25,248 bases of DNA from a virus (lineage: Duplodnaviria > Heunggongvirae > Uroviricota > Caudoviricetes): IMG/VR virus record IMGVR_UViG_2609459844_000006, positions 1 through 25,248 of that record. The stretch is one strand, 5' to 3'. A program made the position numbers and the translations under genes. This document shows positions 4,122 through 11,488 of the stretch, piece by piece. Numbering within the stretch: position 1 is the first letter of the stretch; every line of letters begins with the position of its first letter. Under the pieces are notes generated by a model. It worked only from the letters and a program-made list of their open reading frames with translations. It was not told where the DNA came from and did not search any database.

Positions 4122-4949
4122 TTAGGCTTTAAAGTTACCGATGAAAGTTTCCACTGATTCACCTTCGAACTTGCTGATCAGCAAATCGCGGAATTCATTG
4201 GCGATAGCTTCTTCCTGGGCTTCCAGTTGTACTATGCGCAGTACAAAACGAGGTTCATCACCTGTAAGCAAACTGTTGCGTAAGCTAAAGCGGCGTTCGC
4301 CTAAACCTTCATACGGCACACATTTGAATTCGAACGCTACCGGCATTACGTCTTTGCTGCTGGCTTCAATACTCTGCATAAGCGATTTTTTGCCGCTGAA
4401 ATCGCTGTCTTCATGATCCTGCTGGGTTGCCTGCTGGATAGTTATACGACGAACAGCCTGGGCGGCTTGTGAAATCTGCATCGTATTGCCATCAGCATCG
4501 AACGCCAGCAGGTAATCGCTCCAGTCTTCCAGCCACTCGGCGATCTGTTTTTGTTTCAGACGCTCACCGTTGATCTGGAGAAGAGCACGGAAAGGTGCGG
4601 TCTGTTTCAGGGTGATGGATGCAACATTGTCCGCATGACCGGGGTTATCGAGTGTGCCGATGTTGAACACTGAACGGGCGGTCATGTTGTCAGCGTCAAT
4701 AAAGCAACGAGCTGGCTCACTTTCGCTGGCATAGCCTTTTGAATAACGAGCAAAATCTTCAATGCTGGTCGTGGTCATGGCACCGCGGAAGCGGAAACGC
4801 TCCAGAGAAAAACGCTCGAGGCTTTCAATGCCGGTACCCTCTGGCAGTAATGCGGTCGGGCAAGCCAGGCCATGAATATCATTCAGGTGGTAGCCAGAAA
4901 GGACCAGGTCTTTTACCTGCTGAAATGTACCGCTGTCTAACTGGGACAT
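4122..4949 (-). CDS. YfdQ-like prophage protein (DUF2303-type), function unknown
   Basis: 275-aa ORF with AAGGAA SD; gene order P-Q-HD matches the yfdP-yfdQ-yfdR arrangement of E. coli CPS-53-type prophages (from memory). Confidence 0.55.
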   Translation of the reverse strand: MSQLDSGTFQQVKDLVLSGYHLNDIHGLACPTALLPEGTGIESLERFSLERFRFRGAMTTTSIEDFARYSKGYASESEPARCFIDADNMTARSVFNIGTLDNPGHADNVASITLKQTAPFRALLQINGERLKQKQIAEWLEDWSDYLLAFDADGNTMQISQAAQAVRRITIQQATQQDHEDSDFSGKKSLMQSIEASSKDVMPVAFEFKCVPYEGLGERRFSLRNSLLTGDEPRFVLRIVQLEAQEEAIANEFRDLLISKFEGESVETFIGNFKA

Positions 4950-5005: not shown

Positions 5006-5377
5006 TCACTGAGCCGCTTTAAGCTTTCCGTCCACCGCGCCGGTGATGCCGAAGAGTTGCCCCTGATCCTCCTGGAGGATGGTGAGCTTCCCGCCTTTGT
5101 TGACCCACATTGGTGTTTCGGTGGTGTCTTCTTCAGAGACTTTGCCGCGCGGTGTTGGGGTGCTGTATTTCAGCTTGTGCTTGATCTTGACGCGTTTCTC
5201 TTCGACAGAGTTACCCATGCGCTCAAAATCAAAGGTGAGAACTACCTGGCCTTTGTTACCGTTGCTCAGAACGCCGAGCGCAGTGGTATTAAGCGCTCCT
5301 GCTATTTTGTTCATGAACACTCCGGCATCCAGTTCGCTCAGAAAGTCGGGTACTACGGTCGTGCGGTCATTACTCAT
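5006..5377 (-). CDS. hypothetical prophage protein (YfdP-like position)
   Basis: 123-aa ORF, GAGGG SD 8 nt upstream; first gene after the long ORF-free leader. Confidence 0.5.
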   Translation of the reverse strand: MSNDRTTVVPDFLSELDAGVFMNKIAGALNTTALGVLSNGNKGQVVLTFDFERMGNSVEEKRVKIKHKLKYSTPTPRGKVSEEDTTETPMWVNKGGKLTILQEDQGQLFGITGAVDGKLKAAQ

Positions 5378-6383
5378 GGTTTTACCCTCGTTAAGGCGGC
5401 TGCCACCGCCGTGTTTTCTCCATACACAACAGAGAAGGACACCTGCATTGGTCGGCGGCTTGCAGAGACCGCTGTCTTTTTGTCCGGACGGGTTGGGTTA
5501 TGAGCCCGTCACACGGTGATACCCTTTTCTGTTGCGTAAAAAGGGCGGTACCGAGGTAGAACATTATCTTCGTCCCCCTTGCATAAGGTTGAAGACCCTG
5601 GTACCGCCAAGACTACACACAGCAATACTGGAACTACGGTTATCACGGTCCTAAGCGTGATTTGGTTGTGGTGGCCGGTACTACGATATTCCGGCATGGG
5701 TTGATTATCAGTGACGCACCCTTTCGGGACACTCCCTCACGGTTTAGCGCATCAGCCTGCGCATTCACCACAACGAAGAGAGCACTGCCGGTGTTCGAAT
5801 CGAACGAACCTTTTCCCTGCCCAACCCTCCCAACAGAATGGGACTGTCTGGAATCGAACCAGCACTTATGCCTTGCTCGTCAATGCTCTCGTCGTTGTGC
5901 CCTGAAAAAGGCTGGCGGTGACCGGACAAGTGGGAAAACACCGGGCCGCCAGAACAGGGAAGTACTTGTTATTGCTTTGGCCTGCTTTTAACCACATCAG
6001 GCGCGGTGGTAGGTATCTTCGGGCGGGGTGCTAAGGGGGTGATTAGCCCTTGCCCTTAACACTCCTGCTGGTTTTGGTATTCCTGGCTTGGGTATCGCCA
6101 CCAGCTATAGGAATTTGACTACGAGTTGCGGTTAATCAGACCGCGTCTCTGTTACCCCTCCCGAAGACACCTGTCAGCGAATCATCCGGTTATTCATACG
6201 CCACCGGCGGCTACTTCGTGGGCGTCCTGCCTGTTCGCTGTTGCTTATGGCTAGTTGTAATGTTGTAAATCGTAATAACACCTTTAAGGTGTAATTTAGT
6301 TGTGAATAATGGTTATGTCAACAACTTTATGTGGTTTGATTGTGGGGCGTCTGAATGTAAGGATGTTCAAAAAAGGAGGCTGT

Positions 6384-7265
6384 ATGGAAGACAAGCTCTA
6401 CGTTTTTAACTACACACAAAATAGAAATAAGCTTTTTGCAAATTTAATCAGCATTATTGATGGGATTCTTGCCGATGGACATGTGCGGGATGAAGAGGTG
6501 CTATATCTTGATACTTGGCTACTTGAAGCCAACCAAACCATTAGAAATGGTGTTATCAAGAGTCTAAGTGTTAGGGTCTCTAAAATACTGGCCGATGGTG
6601 TTGTTTCTGATGATGAGCGTGGTGAATTAAAACTGCATCTTAATGATATACAAAGACAAATACTCGATATACCCGATGTGGATTTATTCTCCAGTGAGTC
6701 AGATCTGCATCTGTTGAATGGTCTTTGCAAGGGTTTAATATCAGATCGAACCTTAAGTGAAGAAGAAGTGAGATACCTGGACTGGTGGTTAACACAGAAC
6801 GGGGCGCTAAAAAGTAATTATCCAGGAAAGGAACTATACGCTTTAGTAAAAGAGATTCTGAGCGATGGGATCATCACCACTGAAGAAAGTGAAAATCTAC
6901 ACAAGGCGCTGGTAGATTTTACTGGTTGTGACCTTGCAAGCGGCGTCGTAGATGGGCTTTCTACTAAATTACCATTAGATAATACTGCTGAAGTTTCTGT
7001 TGAAAATAAAACATTTTGCTTAACGGGTGTTTTTTTGGCAGGAAAGAGAGCACATGTTGAAGACCTAATTAAAAAGAATAATGGACTGATTTCCAGCGGA
7101 ATCACAAAGAGAATTGATTTTCTCGTAATTGGTACTCTTTCCTCGCGTGACTGGAAGTTCTCCAGTCACGGAAGGAAAATAGAAAAAGCAGTCTCATATA
7201 GAGATGATGAAGGGGCTAAGTTAAAAATCATTTCAGAAGAAATGCTTTTTCACGCTCTACCATGA
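6384..7265 (+). CDS. tandem-repeat protein with C-terminal BRCT domain (function unknown)
   Basis: Start at ATG 6384 with perfect AAGGAGG SD. Four ~45-aa acidic repeats (ILADGHVRDEEVLYLDTWL / ILADGVVSDDERGELKLHL / LISDRTLSEEEVRYLDWWL / ILSDGIITTEESENLHKAL). C-terminus (NKTFCLTGVF..GKRAHVEDLIKKNNGLISSGITKRIDFLVIG..RDWKF..KLKIISEEMLF) matches the BRCT pattern seen in NAD-dependent ligases. AT-rich relative to flanks. Confidence 0.6.
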   Translation: MEDKLYVFNYTQNRNKLFANLISIIDGILADGHVRDEEVLYLDTWLLEANQTIRNGVIKSLSVRVSKILADGVVSDDERGELKLHLNDIQRQILDIPDVDLFSSESDLHLLNGLCKGLISDRTLSEEEVRYLDWWLTQNGALKSNYPGKELYALVKEILSDGIITTEESENLHKALVDFTGCDLASGVVDGLSTKLPLDNTAEVSVENKTFCLTGVFLAGKRAHVEDLIKKNNGLISSGITKRIDFLVIGTLSSRDWKFSSHGRKIEKAVSYRDDEGAKLKIISEEMLFHALP

Positions 7266-7943
7266 ACGTGAAGACCAGAACACGCGACCAATAACGTGTA
7301 TTCTGGCTCTTCTTTCATCAAAGTTGAGTACTTCATCCGGGTACTCTTCTTTGTTGAAACTCCGCAGTATCAAACCACCATCTGGTTGATTGATAAGAAC
7401 TTTAACTCGAAGTAAAACTCCATCTCTAACAGCGTATAAATCACCATCTCTGATAGGTTTCGACTGTGACATGTCAATCGCGACATGATCCCCATTATTC
7501 AATACTGGCAAAAGGCTGTTGCCCCAAATCTTTACGATTCTTGCGTTAGCAGGACTGACTCCAGCTTTTCTAAGATCGAAACGACGAAGAGGGAACGAAT
7601 CAACAACTGATTCCACAATTTCGGCTTCACATCCATTGCCAGCAGAGAACTCAACATCGAGAACGGGTATGTTGGCAAATACTTCAGGATCAAGTTTTGC
7701 TTCTTCAAGTTCCTCAACTACAAAATCAGAAATAGAGCCATTCTCCTCAATTCCGAGCTGTAGCCATTTTTGGGATACATCTAAAGCTTTCGCAATATCT
7801 TTGATCTTTCTAGGTTGAAGCGTATCTCCATTTTCAATTTTCGCCACAGATTGTTGAGACAGGCCTATTAGCTCGGCTAACTGAGCCTGGCTCATGCCTT
7901 TCTTCTCTCTAGCTATTTTTAGTCGTTCCGCAAGTGTATTCAC
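7257..7943 (-). CDS. cI: CI-type prophage repressor (HTH_XRE + S24 LexA-like peptidase domain)
   Basis: GTG start 7943 with AGGGGG SD 7 nt upstream; N-terminal HTH (LAERLKIAREKKGMSQAQLAELIGLSQQSVAKIENG) and C-terminal autocleavage-type domain; divergent from a Cro-like gene across operator repeats. Confidence 0.8.
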   Translation of the reverse strand: MNTLAERLKIAREKKGMSQAQLAELIGLSQQSVAKIENGDTLQPRKIKDIAKALDVSQKWLQLGIEENGSISDFVVEELEEAKLDPEVFANIPVLDVEFSAGNGCEAEIVESVVDSFPLRRFDLRKAGVSPANARIVKIWGNSLLPVLNNGDHVAIDMSQSKPIRDGDLYAVRDGVLLRVKVLINQPDGGLILRSFNKEEYPDEVLNFDERRARIHVIGRVFWSSRSW

Positions 7944-8080
7944 AACTTTACCCCCTGTATTAGGAGAGATTACAACTTTATGTTTTAGCTTTCCAACACC
8001 TAAAAGTTGTGGTAAAAGTTGTTTAGGTTGTATGATCAATGGTGCCAACAACTTTTACCTCAAACCACAGGAGAAAAACT
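7944..8080. promoter_or_regulatory. immunity-region operator/promoter region (OR-like) with repeated CAACTTT half-sites
   Basis: Five copies of the 8-mer CAACTTT(T/A) or its complement AAAAGTTG (7943-7950, 7973-7980, 8002-8009, 8014-8021, 8048-8055) between divergent cI and cro-like starts. Confidence 0.55.
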
Positions 8081-8323
8081 ATGACACCTGAGCAGTTAGC
8101 CCTTTCAGAGGCAATTGAAACTGCTGGTGGCCAGTCTGAGTTAGCCCGGAAACTAACTGCAAGTTCCGGGAAGGAAGTTAAACAACAACAGGTATGGAAC
8201 TGGCTCAACAGAGAAAAAAGGTCGCCAATAAAGCAATCTCAGTACATTGAGAGCGTTACTGGCATCCCAAAAGAAAGACTGCGTCCTGATGTTTTCCAAA
8301 AGTCTACAGATTCAGCAGCTTAA
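8081..8323 (+). CDS. Cro-like small HTH regulator
   Basis: 80-aa ORF from ATG 8081 with AGGAG SD; contains HTH-like segment (LSEAIETAGGQSELARKL); first rightward gene opposite cI. Confidence 0.55.
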   Translation: MTPEQLALSEAIETAGGQSELARKLTASSGKEVKQQQVWNWLNREKRSPIKQSQYIESVTGIPKERLRPDVFQKSTDSAA

Positions 8324-9823: not shown

Positions 9824-10739
9824 AATCGTTCAATCGCTGTCGGGGCAAAGGAATAGCATCACCATTCCGGTCCCGTACCTCGATTATTTCTCCGGCGATC
9901 AGCAGGCGCATGCTTTGGGCGCTGTGCTAAACCAGCTCGTGTTCTGGTCTGGTAAATCAGATCTGAATGATGGCTGGTTTTATAAAGAGCACAGCGAGCT
10001 TGCGGCAGAGATTCGCGGCGTGAGTGAAGATCAGGTGCAGCGCCTGGTAAACAAGATTTGTACCCGCTGGCTACCAGGGGTTGTTGAAAAGGCGCAGCGA
10101 CAGGTAAACGGCACGAAAAAGACGCATTACCGTATCAATGGCGAAGCGCTAATCAATGTTTTATTCCCGGCAACGCTGGATTCCGCAGAATCGCGGAACG
10201 GGAAACGCGAAGTCGCGGAACCTATTCCGCAGAATCACGGAACCGAAAACGCAGAATCGCGGAACCCTAACCGCGAAGTCGCGGAACCTATTCTCTATAC
10301 AGATCATTACTCAGATCACCACAAACAGATCATTAACCCCTCTTGTCCGGTTGCGCCGCAACCAGACCCTGAGGTGTTGATCACTGATAACGCCATCCTG
10401 GTTTTAACTCATTTGAACCAGGTAAGCGGCTCCCGGTACCAGAAATCTAAAACCTCTCTGGAAAACATACGTGCCCGTCTGCGTGAAGGTTATACCGTCA
10501 GCGACTTAACGCTGGTGATTGACCTCAAGCATGAACACTGGAACGGCAATGACGTGCAGTATCAGTACATGCGGCCTGAAACTCTGTTTGGGCCGAAAAA
10601 ATTTGAGGGTTATCTGCAAAGCGGGCTCCGCTGGGATAAGAAAGGCCGTCCCCCTCGTGAAAGCTGGGGCGAGAAGAAACATGACCCGATGAAGTTCGGC
10701 CCGGTAGATACCAAAATTCCAGAGGGATTCAGAGGATGA
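9807..10739 (+). CDS. phage replication initiator (O-like; conserved phage C-terminal domain)
   Basis: 310-aa ORF at the O position; internal DNA iterons within the coding sequence as in lambda O; C-terminal region resembles the conserved phage replication C-terminal domain. Confidence 0.65.
   Translation: MSQIFEIVQSLSGQRNSITIPVPYLDYFSGDQQAHALGAVLNQLVFWSGKSDLNDGWFYKEHSELAAEIRGVSEDQVQRLVNKICTRWLPGVVEKAQRQVNGTKKTHYRINGEALINVLFPATLDSAESRNGKREVAEPIPQNHGTENAESRNPNREVAEPILYTDHYSDHHKQIINPSCPVAPQPDPEVLITDNAILVLTHLNQVSGSRYQKSKTSLENIRARLREGYTVSDLTLVIDLKHEHWNGNDVQYQYMRPETLFGPKKFEGYLQSGLRWDKKGRPPRESWGEKKHDPMKFGPVDTKIPEGFRG
10183..10293. repeat. ori-like iterons (five ~18-22 bp direct repeats, core GAATCGCGGAACC / GAAGTCGCGGAACCTATTC)
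   Basis: Direct repeats at about 10183-10199, 10206-10227, 10226-10243, 10250-10267 and 10271-10293 inside the replication gene, encoding the repeated peptide AESRNGKREVAEPIP. Confidence 0.55.
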
Positions 10740-11488
10740 TTGAAAACAAATACTGCCGCGCGCTGGCCGAACTGCGTTCAAAACCAGCTCACGAATTGAA
10801 AGAAGTTGGCGATCAGTGGCGGACACCGGATCTGCTTTTATGGGGTATCAACGCGCTATTTGGTCCATTAGTTCTGGACTTGTTTGCTGACGACGACAAC
10901 GCGAAATGCCCAGCATGGTACACCGCCGAAGATAACGCACTGACGCAGGACTGGTCTGAACGTCTGGCAGAACTGGGTGGCGCGGCTTTTGCCAACCCTC
11001 CATATAGCCGCTCGCAGTACCACGAGAAACAGGCGATCACTGGTATGACGCACATCATGAAGTACGCAGCAACCCAGCGCGAGAAGGGCGGTCGCTATGT
11101 ATTCCTGATAAAAGCCGCGCCGAGTGAAACGTGGTGGCCGGAAGATGCCGATCACATTGTATTCATTCGCGGGCGCATTGGTTTCGATCTGCCAGTGTGG
11201 TTTGTACCTGCTGACGAAAAACAGAAGCCCACCAGCGCGTTTTTTTCCGGAGCCATAGCTGTATTCGATAAGTCATGGCGTGGTGAGCGGTTCAGCTATA
11301 TCAACCGTACAGAACTGGAGGCAAAAGGTCGGGCATTTATGGCGCTGGCCCAATTCGCTGTTGGCAAAGAGCCGACAATTGCAATGCGGCCCCCCAGGAT
11401 CCAGTCATACCATCGGAAACTGAGTCACGAATCTGGCCTCTCGAGGTTGGTCTGGTGTTTAACCAGGTGGAAGGCGTTGACGTATTGA
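10736..11488 (+). CDS. phage Dam-family N6-adenine DNA methyltransferase (3' end uncertain)
   Basis: NPPY motif (AFANPPYS) typical of N6-adenine MTases; ATGA overlap with the replication gene stop. Last ~30 codons look non-protein-like and follow a C6 homopolymer at 11390-11395. Confidence 0.65.
   Translation: MIENKYCRALAELRSKPAHELKEVGDQWRTPDLLLWGINALFGPLVLDLFADDDNAKCPAWYTAEDNALTQDWSERLAELGGAAFANPPYSRSQYHEKQAITGMTHIMKYAATQREKGGRYVFLIKAAPSETWWPEDADHIVFIRGRIGFDLPVWFVPADEKQKPTSAFFSGAIAVFDKSWRGERFSYINRTELEAKGRAFMALAQFAVGKEPTIAMRPPRIQSYHRKLSHESGLSRLVWCLTRWKALTY

What the first reader, a model, noticed from the sequence alone, without database searches (positions are those of the whole stretch)
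6240..7265. Tandem-repeat + BRCT-domain protein in the immunity region, convergent with cI
The ORF 6384-7265 has a perfect SD and is AT-rich relative to its surroundings. It sits where lambdoid phages keep lysogen-expressed exclusion genes (the rexAB/sieB position) but is oriented convergently, overlapping the cI 3' end by 9 nt. The protein combines four acidic ~45-aa repeats (motif I-L-A/S-D-G-x-V/I-x-D/E-E-E, reminiscent of TerB/DjlA-type motifs) with a C-terminal BRCT-like domain including the conserved W. BRCT domains bind DNA ends or phospho-epitopes, and I do not know of a characterised prophage immunity-region protein with this architecture. Candidate new superinfection-exclusion or DNA-damage-sensing factor.
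Basis: partly seen in the sequence, partly recalled or inferred. Interest (0 to 1): 0.68.

Follow-up and report, generated by a model that had tools for sequence, protein, structure and literature searches.

The report
Repressor-linked BRCT protein of prophages
A real, strongly conserved prophage gene, always found next to the phage repressor gene, encodes a non-enzymatic protein that joins two acidic helical modules to a DNA-end-binding type (BRCT) domain; it belongs to a very large family that nobody has characterised, and it is probably made in the dormant prophage state.

Summary

It is not a ligase, and TerB membership is unsupported. The "conserved W" is a family-specific Trp, not the canonical BRCT Trp.

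It is a full-length member of PHROG 3989 (function unknown), the family of Vibrio phage K139 Orf2. The family has about 2,700 clusters at 50% identity.

In 92/92 Enterobacterales loci the gene lies tail-to-tail with the same cI family. In K139 and many short-form relatives it lies directly downstream of the repressor, in the lysogenic operon.

Its upstream region carries conserved operator copies and back-to-back promoters. A cI operator abuts the gene's -35 box, as lambda OR2 does at PRM, which predicts expression in lysogens.

The module+BRCT cassette is fused elsewhere to DEDDh exonuclease (untested defence candidate PDC-S48) and to a helicase-nuclease.

Best reading: a lysogen-expressed binder of 5'-phosphate DNA ends or nicks that acts in exclusion or defence. 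This is inferred, not shown. Rivals are an induction modulator and a DNA-repair accessory.

The parts
6384..7265 (+). Coding sequence of the 293-aa protein (stop 7263-7265)
   Evidence: phrog_3989 full-length match, E 1.5e-114. dN/dS 0.057 against a 94%-identical homologue with dS 0.56.
6384..6929 (+). N-terminal region (res 1-182): duplicated ~90-aa acidic helical module (res ~10-98 and ~99-182). Each module has two D-x7-E repeats. Net charge is -14.
7008..7262 (+). BRCT domain (res 209-293), basic (pI 9.6). T214-G215 and R222 align to the T-G and R of the RFC1 BRCT. K265 is invariant. The family-specific insert is SSRDWKFSSHGRKIEKA.
6336..6364 (+). Candidate sigma-70 promoter of the gene: -35 TTGATT (6336-6341), 17-nt spacer, TG (6356-6357), -10 AAGGAT (6359-6364). 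Predicted transcription start near 6371.
   Evidence: Own scan. Both boxes and their spacing are conserved without indels in 20 loci whose proteins diverge to 53% identity, while the spacer sequence varies. Function is inferred.
6373..6379 (+). Shine-Dalgarno AAGGAGG
   Evidence: conserved.
6321..6335 (.). Operator-like site ACAACTTTATGTGGT. It overlaps the -35 box of the leftward promoter and ends 1 nt before the -35 box of the BRCT-gene promoter. Its centre is about -43 from the predicted start.
   Evidence: 12/13 identical to 7972-7984 in the cI-cro intergenic region. All six exact ACAACTTTW sites in the 25 kb lie at 6321 and 7942-8056. Invariant in 20 loci.
6278..6292 (.). Operator-like perfect palindrome ACACCTTTAAGGTGT, just downstream of the leftward -10 box
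6293..6321 (-). Candidate early-left promoter (pL): TTGACA (6321-6316), 17 nt, TAAATT (6298-6293)
   Evidence: 10/12 consensus match. Boxes conserved and spacer variable in 20 loci.
7257..7265 (.). 9-nt tail-to-tail overlap of the two coding sequences
7326..7356 (+). Terminator-like hairpin plus T-rich tail, 61 nt after the stop, embedded in cI codons for E-Y-P-D-E-V-L
   Evidence: Present in most Enterobacteriaceae relatives, with one compensatory arm change (GAGTAC/GTACTC to GAGTAT/ATACTC).
7257..7943 (-). cI-type repressor (HTH_3 + Peptidase_S24), 228 aa from GTG 7943. The 264-aa ORF reaching 8051 is an over-extension.
   Evidence: Pfam. The E. coli homologue is 228 aa. Alignment shows the Ala-Gly site, Ser143 and Lys181 conserved.
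7944..8080 (.). cI-cro intergenic (OR-type) region with five exact ACAACTTTW half-sites. Candidate PR is TTGTGG-18-TATGAT. Candidate PRM is TTGGAA (7996-7991)-18-TAATCT, with an operator abutting its -35 box.
8081..8323 (+). Cro-like regulator (YdaS-type HTH), 80 aa

Best explanation
The gene is an accessory ('moron'-type) member of the prophage immunity cassette and is expressed in the lysogen. The repressor bound at operator 6321-6335 shuts off the leftward early promoter. From the same site it sits just upstream of the gene's own -35 box, which is the geometry lambda cI uses at OR2 to activate PRM. The protein would therefore be made while cI is present.

The product has no catalytic domain. 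Its basic BRCT domain keeps the T-G / R / K phosphate pocket of the RFC1 and LigA class, which binds 5'-phosphorylated DNA ends and nicks. Its strongly acidic, duplicated helical modules, with four D-x7-E motifs, are a ligand-, metal- or partner-binding (or autoinhibitory) sensor part.

Proposed action: in the lysogen it binds the ends or nicks of incoming or replicating foreign DNA and blocks their processing (end joining or replication). This would be a superinfection-exclusion or defence function. In relatives the same cassette is coupled to nucleases.

Shown: the architecture, the fold, the conserved pocket residues, the obligate linkage to repressor genes and the conserved regulatory boxes.
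Inferred: promoter activity, cI dependence, DNA-end binding and the exclusion phenotype.
For: Domain and fold:
- T214-G215 and R222 align to the RFC1 T-G and R. T214, G215, R222 and K265 are invariant or nearly so.
- Charge dipole of -14 and +5, conserved across the family.

Linkage to repressors:
- 92/92 Enterobacterales loci are convergent with the same cI family, and identities co-vary.
- 80/80 loci found from the cI side carry the gene or a remnant of it.
- K139 orf2 lies in the annotated PL lysogenic operon, next to the exclusion gene glo. K139 cI is a different repressor family, so the link is positional rather than tied to one repressor family.
- Short forms lie directly downstream of S24 repressors or near int.

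Regulatory region:
- Operator and promoter boxes are conserved with fixed spacing and variable spacers.
- The operator word is confined to the OL and OR regions.
- The geometry is the same at the candidate PRM.

Defence flavour:
- The cassette is fused to DEDDh exonuclease, which is PADLOC candidate PDC-S48 (E 1e-21 for the fusions, 5.5e-5 for this protein).
- It is fused to an SF1 helicase + REase protein that matches PDC-S37, MkoA and Hhe.
- It is adjacent to SNase, to a reverse transcriptase and to Kv-type K+ channels.
- Distribution is patchy, in 48 of 5,426 complete E. coli genomes.
- The gene is dispensable: 17 of 80 loci have it truncated or deleted.
Against: - There is no experimental datum for any family member, and no literature was found.
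- The -10 box (AAGGAT) is weak, and promoter activity and cI activation are unproven.
- cI read-through would run antisense through the gene, because no minus-strand terminator was found.
- The window protein has no effector domain or partner gene.
- The PADLOC similarity is weak, and PDC-S48 is itself untested.
- About 32 of 80 genomic loci (Pseudohongiella, SAR86 and other marine Gammaproteobacteria) sit in conserved non-phage synteny: TonB receptor, SPFH/NfeD, ECF sigma. That pattern suggests a housekeeping DNA-metabolism role rather than defence.
- Very strong purifying selection and co-divergence with cI are unusual for freely exchanged defence cargo.
Confidence: 0.4

Rival explanations
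1. Lysis-lysogeny modulator. The protein senses DNA damage (nicks, gaps or ends) through its BRCT domain and tunes prophage induction. It might do so by limiting or promoting RecA filament formation near damage, or by acting on the repressor.
For: - Invariable linkage and co-divergence with cI.
- It sits inside the switch region and shares operators with it.
- A 2026 preprint on Roseobacter prophages lists cI- and BRCT-encoding modules as presumed DNA-damage-responsive replacements for quorum-sensing modules (PMC13345283).
- Strong purifying selection.
Against: - The same family is linked to an uncleavable 186-type CI in K139, to simple HTH_3 regulators, and to int-proximal slots without an adjacent repressor. 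A specific interaction with S24 autocleavage is therefore unlikely.
- Prophage lineages with the gene truncated or deleted persist.
- Chromosomal homologues have no phage switch nearby.
Confidence: 0.25
2. Host-benefit DNA-maintenance factor (lysogenic conversion). It is a cellular-type nick/end-binding accessory protein, captured by phages, that helps the lysogen tolerate DNA damage.
For: - Conserved single-copy chromosomal homologues sit in stable, non-phage synteny in marine Gammaproteobacteria.
- Fusions to the LigA-type HhH+BRCT tail and to DEDDh exonuclease.
- NCBIfam's best partial hit is the BRCT tail of a Pol III epsilon-like exonuclease.
Against: - It does not explain the strict placement next to repressors in three unrelated temperate-phage groups.
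- It does not explain the recurrent neighbours typical of defence cargo (SNase, RT, K+ channel, glo).
- Prevalence in E. coli is only 0.9%.
Confidence: 0.15
3. Lytic-phase accessory of phage replication, recombination or genome-end handling, expressed after induction rather than in the lysogen.
For: - The BRCT of the LigA/RFC1 class is associated with DNA joining and clamp loading.
- The gene lies beside the early-left operon, which carries recombination-type genes such as DUF2303 and Ead/Ea22.
Against: - It is transcribed away from pL and towards cI.
- The operator lies upstream of the -35 box, not over the core promoter.
- K139 and the short-form homologues are in repressor operons.
- The gene is dispensable in natural deletion variants.
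Confidence: 0.1
4. It is an NAD-dependent DNA ligase, as several database records name it.
For: Source names. Weak hits to LigA models restricted to residues ~200-255.
Against: LigA models score 14-25 bits against cutoffs of 369-1051 and cover only the BRCT tail. There is no adenylation, OB, zinc-finger or HhH domain.
Confidence: 0.01

Closest known systems
Vibrio phage K139 Orf2 (NP_536630) / PHROG phrog_3989
   Same: Full-length homologue (31.6% identity over 96% of the protein; phrog E 1.5e-114). It has the same architecture of two modules plus BRCT and the same invariant residues. It also lies next to the repressor gene.
   Different: In K139 it is co-directional, in the cI-orf2-glo-int operon of a P2-like phage with a 186-type CI. 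Here it is convergent with an S24-type cI of a lambdoid prophage and has its own promoter at OL. No function is known for either protein.
Lambda rexA/rexB (and sieB-type) immunity-region exclusion genes
   Same: The chromosomal slot is the same, between the cI 3' end and OL/pL. Both are predicted to be expressed in the lysogen, and both are accessory and dispensable. In eight relatives a K+-channel gene is the operon partner, which recalls the RexA sensor / RexB channel logic.
   Different: There is no sequence or fold similarity. Orientation is opposite. It is a single gene here, with no membrane component. The exclusion phenotype is untested.
PADLOC phage-defence candidate PDC-S48 (DEDDh exonuclease + module + BRCT; Payne et al., bioRxiv 10.1101/2024.01.29.577857)
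   Same: It shares the second helical module and the BRCT domain (residues 119-251 match profile positions 239-377 of 411, E 5.5e-5; K139 Orf2 E 3e-8).
   Different: The window protein lacks the exonuclease domain entirely. PDC-S48 is an untested 'guilt-by-embedding' candidate.
BRCT domains of RFC1 p140 and bacterial/phage NAD+ ligases
   Different: It is not attached to a clamp-loader or ligase catalytic core. It has a family-specific 13-residue insert (SRDW...HGRK). The canonical alpha3 Trp is replaced by Leu in this protein.
TerB / DjlA N-terminal domain
   Same: A helix-loop motif A-D-G-x5-E-(R) repeated in a helical bundle. Five of 40 relatives give weak PF05099 hits (best E 7e-4).

Membership tests
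BRCT domain (Pfam PF00533) | Profile match above the curated gathering score | tested here: met
   25.8 bits against 21.3, residues 207-266. All 40 of 40 relatives match.
BRCT domain (Pfam PF00533) | Beta-alpha-beta-beta-alpha-beta-alpha fold superposable on solved BRCT domains | tested here: met
BRCT domain (Pfam PF00533) | Phosphate-binding pocket (S/T-G after beta1, R/K in alpha1, K in alpha2) | tested here: met
   T214-G215 and R222 align to the RFC1 T-G and R. K265 is invariant; its equivalence to the RFC1 alpha2 Lys is inferred. Ligand binding itself was not testable.
BRCT domain (Pfam PF00533) | Conserved Trp of helix alpha3 | tested here: not met
The position is Leu288 here, while most relatives have W (consensus '..EExW'). 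The Pfam match stops at profile position 52 of 78.
K139 Orf2 family / phrog_3989 | End-to-end profile match with the same domain order | tested here: met
   Residues 2-292 match profile positions 2-292 of 296, E 1.5e-114. Aligned with K139 Orf2.
NAD-dependent DNA ligase LigA | Adenylation, OB-fold, Zn-finger and HhH domains; equivalog score | tested here: not met
   Only the BRCT tail matches: 25.3 bits against a cutoff of 444 (TIGR00575) and 14-19 bits for the other LigA models. No other domain was found in Pfam or in the model.
TerB (PF05099) / DjlA N-domain | Significant profile or fold match to TerB-like domains | tested here: inconclusive
PADLOC PDC-S48 (defence candidate) | N-terminal DEDDh 3'-5' exonuclease domain | tested here: not met
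   No RNase_T or DEDDh match in the window protein. The fused relatives P0187 and P0269 have it.
PADLOC PDC-S48 (defence candidate) | C-terminal helical module + BRCT | tested here: met
   E 5.5e-5, residues 119-251 against profile positions 239-377 of 411.
Lambda Rex-type immunity-region exclusion system | Located between the cI 3' end and OL/pL | tested here: met
   Operators and candidate pL lie at 6278-6335, and the cI 3' end is at 7257.
Lambda Rex-type immunity-region exclusion system | Co-transcribed with cI from PRM | tested here: not met
   The gene is convergent with cI here. The feature is met in K139 and in the short-form relatives.
Lambda Rex-type immunity-region exclusion system | Sensor plus membrane ion-channel pair; exclusion phenotype | not testable with these tools
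   The window has no partner gene. A Kv-type channel is adjacent in 4 of 80 family-seeded loci and 4 of 157 channel-seeded loci. The phenotype needs experiments.

The most novel reading that the evidence does not exclude
The acidic-module + BRCT cassette is the shared DNA-end or nick sensor of a large, unrecognised class of prophage and chromosomal immunity genes with interchangeable effectors. These effectors are DEDDh exonuclease, an SF1 helicase-nuclease, SNase and a Kv-type K+ channel. In enteric lambdoid prophages the effector-less form is switched on by the repressor itself, from a second PRM-like promoter at OL. It excludes superinfecting phages simply by capping the 5'-phosphate ends or nicks of their DNA. 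That would be a new exclusion mechanism and a new output of the cI switch.
Probability: 0.2. Interest if true: 0.8.

Novelty: new variant of a known kind. Interest (0 to 1): 0.6.

Why it matters
Genes that prophages express next to their repressor (rexAB, sieB and others) are a classic source of phage-exclusion mechanisms. This one has a domain combination not seen in any characterised case.

The family is large: 2,675 clusters at 50% identity, 1,500 of them with E <= 1e-10. It spans lambdoid, P2-like and Pseudomonas temperate phages as well as some bacterial chromosomes. It is still annotated only as 'BRCT domain-containing protein' or wrongly as a ligase.

The conserved operator and promoter layout gives a directly testable prediction: a second repressor-activated promoter at OL. 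The conserved T-G/R/K pocket gives clean loss-of-function mutants.

If the protein binds DNA ends, it would be a rare bacterial example of a free-standing BRCT reader. It would also explain why the same cassette is attached to nucleases in candidate defence systems.

Tried and rejected
- **RNA gene searches:** Rfam (gathering on the whole window, and E <= 1 on 5300-6400) and a tRNA scan found nothing.
- **BFVD Foldseek** of the N-terminal model gave no hit with E <= 0.001. The afdb50 library was unavailable.
- **Ligase annotation** was rejected on domain content.
- **Literature:** ten searches found no characterised member. One search led to a paper on integron 'BRiC' cassettes, which proved unrelated on reading. 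Nesper et al. 1999 on the K139 control region (PMC93736) is not held, so I could not check whether it reports any Orf2 phenotype. Two later K139-family papers say nothing about orf2 function.
- **K+-channel partnership:** seeding from the channel side recovered the pair in only 4 of 157 loci. It is an occasional association, not a defining one.
- **Specific co-factor of S24 repressor cleavage:** made unlikely by the link to a 186-type CI in K139.
- **Minus-strand terminator for cI inside the gene:** none was conserved.
Full report

ORF 6384-7265 (+) encodes 293 aa. AAGGAGG lies at 6373-6379, and the gene overlaps the 3' end of the minus-strand repressor gene by 9 nt (7257-7265). The mechanical ORF list extends the frame to 6309. 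Relatives have indels between the -10-like box and the SD, so that extension is not conserved. E. coli homologues are annotated at 293 aa.

The gene is under strong purifying selection. Against a 94%-identical homologue, dN/dS is 0.057 with dS 0.56.

GC is 38.8% against 48.8% for the window. However, the low-GC block runs from about 6240 to 8250 and includes cI and cro. The whole immunity cassette is AT-rich, not this gene alone.

The repeats are real. Residues 1-98 and 99-190 align with z = 14.8 against shuffles, and the four sub-repeats score z = 3-8. Each sub-repeat carries an Asp and a Glu seven residues apart: D31/E38, D71/E78, D121/E128 and D161/E168. These remain invariant or nearly so in 40 relatives down to about 30% identity.

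**2. What the protein is**

Pfam finds BRCT above its gathering score: 25.8 against 21.3 bits, residues 207-266. An AlphaFold2 model built on a 40-sequence alignment has pLDDT 85 and pTM 0.76. It shows nine helices (residues 2-180), a less confident linker, and a beta-alpha BRCT unit at 210-291.

A family profile against PDB sequences aligns the family's 'C-f-T-G-k-f-x-x-g-k-R' with RFC1 'v-i-T-G-v-l-e-s-i-e-R'. T214-G215 and R222 therefore occupy the T-G and R positions. From my knowledge of the RFC1 p140 BRCT work, those positions bind the 5' phosphate of dsDNA. K265, in the alpha2 region, is invariant.

The most conserved stretch of the whole family is an insert in the beta3-alpha2 loop, S254-R-D-W257...G263-R-K-I-E267. 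The canonical alpha3 Trp position is Leu288 here and is W in most relatives.

The TerB/DjlA idea did not survive testing beyond the ADG-x5-E motif:
- Only 5 of 40 relatives give weak PF05099 hits, and 5 give weak EF-hand hits.
- A module profile finds nothing in the PDB.
- hhalign to E. coli DjlA gives 1% probability.

The two halves have opposite charge. The modules carry -14 (family mean -19, pI 4.4), and the BRCT domain carries +5 (pI 9.6).

The protein is not a ligase. LigA models score 14-25 bits against cutoffs of 369-1051 and touch only the BRCT tail.

**3. How common it is, and where it sits**

The protein is a full-length member of phrog_3989, function unknown (E 1.5e-114). Near-identical proteins come from Citrobacter koseri. 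Homologues at 65-98% identity are spread over Citrobacter, Klebsiella, Enterobacter, Serratia, Salmonella and E. coli, named 'BRCT domain-containing protein' or, wrongly, 'NAD-dependent DNA ligase'.

An exhaustive HMMER search of 1.84 billion cluster representatives gives 2,675 clusters with E <= 1e-3 and 1,500 with E <= 1e-10. There are two main forms: about 295 aa (two modules + BRCT) and about 210 aa (one module + BRCT).

In E. coli the gene occurs in 48 of 5,426 complete genomes. It is always single-copy, chromosomal and next to the repressor gene.

Linkage to the repressor is the most striking result:
- In the window and 91 related loci from Enterobacterales genomes and IMG/VR contigs, the gene is always tail-to-tail with the same HTH_3 + S24 cI family.
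- In 89 of these 92 loci the genes overlap by 9, 15 or 18 nt. In two loci the BRCT ORF is cut short. In one there is a 28-nt gap and a more divergent cI.
- The two proteins co-diverge: BRCT 53-100% identity, cI 41-100%.
- Seeded from the cI side, all 80 best viral loci carry the gene or a remnant. Sixty-three are full-length, 3 are truncated, and 14 carry an internal deletion that keeps the promoter, SD, start codon and the last ~30 codons. The gene is therefore accessory and dispensable, but it has never been exchanged for other cargo in this cassette.

Outside this clade the theme persists with different partners:
- In the P2-like Vibrio phage K139 the homologue orf2 (31.6% identity, full length) lies in the annotated PL 'lysogenic operon' cI-orf2-glo-int, next to the exclusion gene glo. 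K139 CI is a 186-type repressor without an S24 domain.
- Among 75 viral contigs with the short form, an S24-type repressor lies within two genes in 24. In 12 it is immediately upstream and co-directional, with gaps of 15-276 nt. Cro-like genes, integrases, SNase nucleases, reverse transcriptases and Bro-N genes are the other recurrent neighbours.
- In Pseudomonas phage Lodos the gene sits beside int.
- In Sulfurimonas phage SNW-1 it is followed after 3 nt by a thermonuclease gene.

The link is therefore to the lysogeny module as a place of expression, not to one repressor family.

A third context argues for caution. About 32 of 80 genomic loci (Pseudohongiella, SAR86 and other marine Gammaproteobacteria) show conserved synteny with ordinary cellular genes: a TonB-dependent receptor, SPFH/NfeD, an ECF sigma factor and a hydrolase. 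In those lineages the gene looks like a stable chromosomal resident.

**4. Regulatory anatomy**

The 140 nt upstream of the ATG are not spacer. The word ACAACTTTW occurs exactly six times in the 25 kb: once at 6321 and five times at 7942-8056 in the cI-cro intergenic region. Site 6321-6335 is 12/13 identical to 7972-7984, and 6278-6292 is a perfect palindrome resembling 7996-8010. These are operator-type sites, so 6278-6335 is the OL equivalent.

A 10/12 consensus promoter points leftwards: TTGACA 6321-6316, 17 nt, TAAATT 6298-6293. It is flanked by the two sites, as expected for pL.

Twenty non-redundant loci, whose proteins diverge to 53% identity, were aligned. The alignment shows blocks of near-invariant sequence separated by fully variable spacers of fixed length. 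The conserved blocks are:
- the two operators;
- the pL boxes;
- TTTGATT immediately after the second operator;
- exactly 17 nt further on, (A/G)ATG(C/T)AAGGAT;
- an A-run and the SD.

I read TTGATT (6336-6341), 17 nt, TG-n-AAGGAT (6356-6364) as the gene's own promoter, with an extended -10 and a start near 6371. The operator centre (6328) is then at about -43. That is the position from which lambda cI at OR2 activates PRM (established knowledge).

The candidate PRM of this phage has the same layout: operator ACAACTTTTAGGTGT abutting TTGGAA. The inference is that repressor bound at OL turns pL off and keeps this gene on. All of this is consensus and conservation evidence. No expression data exist.

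Other features of the transcription unit:
- A terminator-like hairpin 61 nt past the stop lies inside cI codons and is conserved with one compensatory change.
- No conserved minus-strand terminator follows cI, so cI read-through would be antisense to the gene. This is an unresolved complication.

**5. What the fusions say**

The module + BRCT cassette is attached to DNA enzymes in other proteins:
- a DEDDh (RNase_T) exonuclease at the N-terminus (P0187, P0269, P0246);
- a 2,042-aa SF1 helicase + REase_MTES_1575 + DUF3320 protein (P0236);
- a LigA-type HhH + BRCT tail (P0151);
- extra BRCT units.

In PADLOC the exonuclease fusions match the single-gene candidate PDC-S48 (E ~1e-21). The giant protein matches PDC-S37, MkoA and Hhe. 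The window protein and K139 Orf2 match only the C-terminal module + BRCT part of PDC-S48, at 5.5e-5 and 3e-8. PDC systems are untested candidates found embedded in BREX, DISARM and type I RM loci (bioRxiv 10.1101/2024.01.29.577857).

A Kv-type K+ channel gene (TVGYGD filter) is the immediate operon partner, in either order, in four family-seeded loci. One of these is an Aliivibrio prophage with the order cI-BRCT-channel-int. The pair also appears in four of 157 channel-seeded loci. The association is occasional but recurrent.

One conserved non-catalytic cassette combined with varied nucleases and a channel is the pattern of a sensor or targeting unit.

**6. Mechanism and rivals**

Best-supported reading (confidence 0.4): a lysogen-expressed, repressor-coupled, non-enzymatic reader of 5'-phosphate DNA ends or nicks that interferes with incoming or replicating foreign DNA. 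In short, an exclusion or defence function.

Rivals:
- A damage-sensing modulator of induction (0.25). This is favoured by the tight co-evolution with cI and by a passing remark in a 2026 preprint (PMC13345283). It is weakened by the link to uncleavable repressors and by the natural deletions.
- A captured cellular DNA-maintenance factor (0.15). This is favoured by the marine chromosomal orthologues.
- A lytic-phase DNA-handling accessory (0.1). This is disfavoured by orientation and operon membership.
- A ligase. This is excluded.

**7. Novelty**

The sequence family is catalogued but uncharacterised. No paper with functional data was found in ten searches. The K139 control-region paper (Nesper 1999) could not be read.

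Relative to known kinds, this is a new variant of the repressor-adjacent prophage accessory gene, with an undescribed N-terminal module and a free-standing BRCT. The predicted PRM-like promoter at OL is a specific and cheap experimental handle.

Noticed in passing
window 5378-6292, minus strand (blocks 5415-5545 and 6165-6240): A leader of about 915 nt lies between the candidate pL and the first left-operon gene, with no ORF over 62 aa. It is a mosaic of conserved non-coding blocks. Two blocks are ~94% identical to an E. coli Nissle 1917 prophage whose cI is only 29% identical. Pieces occur in ~1,700 of 5,426 E. coli genomes and in 166 phage records (ST64B, SfV, Stx2a phages, phiNP), mostly unannotated. 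There is no Rfam hit. Minus-strand folding z-scores are -2.8 (5410-5550) and -2.5 (5484-5904). It may be a structured leader, an antitermination element or an sRNA.
   Followed up: partly
L030 5874-6584, L043 4218-4934, L057 5852-6607, L075 1006-1722; also L218, L223, L288, L309: A Kv-type potassium channel gene (S4-like Arg repeats, TVGYGD filter) sits directly next to, or overlaps, the BRCT-family gene, in either order. One case is a prophage with the order cI-BRCT-channel-int. The layout recalls the RexA/RexB sensor-channel pair, but it is rare: 4 of 80 and 4 of 157 loci.
   Followed up: partly
L468-L481 (e.g. L472 3215-3403): One prophage sub-lineage (cI 79% identical) carries an internal deletion of the BRCT gene. 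A 62-aa ORF remains that keeps the SD, the start 'MDDAL' and the C-terminal 'TLSFRDWKLSNHGRKIEKA'. A ClpX-type zinc-finger gene lies further into the left operon.
   Followed up: yes
L022, L032-L068 and others (Pseudohongiella, SAR86 and other marine Gammaproteobacteria): Full-length homologues (30-36% identity) sit in conserved, non-phage synteny: a 486-aa unknown protein, a small membrane protein, a TonB-dependent receptor, SPFH/NfeD, an ECF sigma factor and an alpha/beta hydrolase. They look like stable chromosomal genes.
   Followed up: partly
window 7326-7356 (+), inside cI codons: The terminator-like hairpin for the BRCT transcript is encoded within cI residues E-Y-P-D-E-V-L. Relatives keep the pairing through a synonymous Tyr codon change paired with a Val-to-Ile change, which suggests dual coding and structure constraint.
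   Followed up: partly
window 7943-8051 and 8039-8080: The longest-ORF calls over-extend both regulators. cI most likely starts at GTG 7943 (228 aa, with a GGGGG SD-like run upstream). cro most likely starts at ATG 8081 (80 aa, with GGAG upstream). This leaves a 137-bp operator region.
   Followed up: yes
L339 4004-4498, L165 3555-3986, L382 663-1715: Short-form family members in viral contigs are repeatedly followed by a staphylococcal-nuclease-type gene or a reverse-transcriptase gene. This is typical prophage defence cargo.
   Followed up: no
window 4122-4949 (-), 10736-11488 (+): The neighbouring genes are a DUF2303 protein in the left operon, a Dam-type N6-adenine methyltransferase, and a Phg_2220_C protein in the right operon. 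This is an ordinary lambdoid/ST64B-like layout.
   Followed up: no
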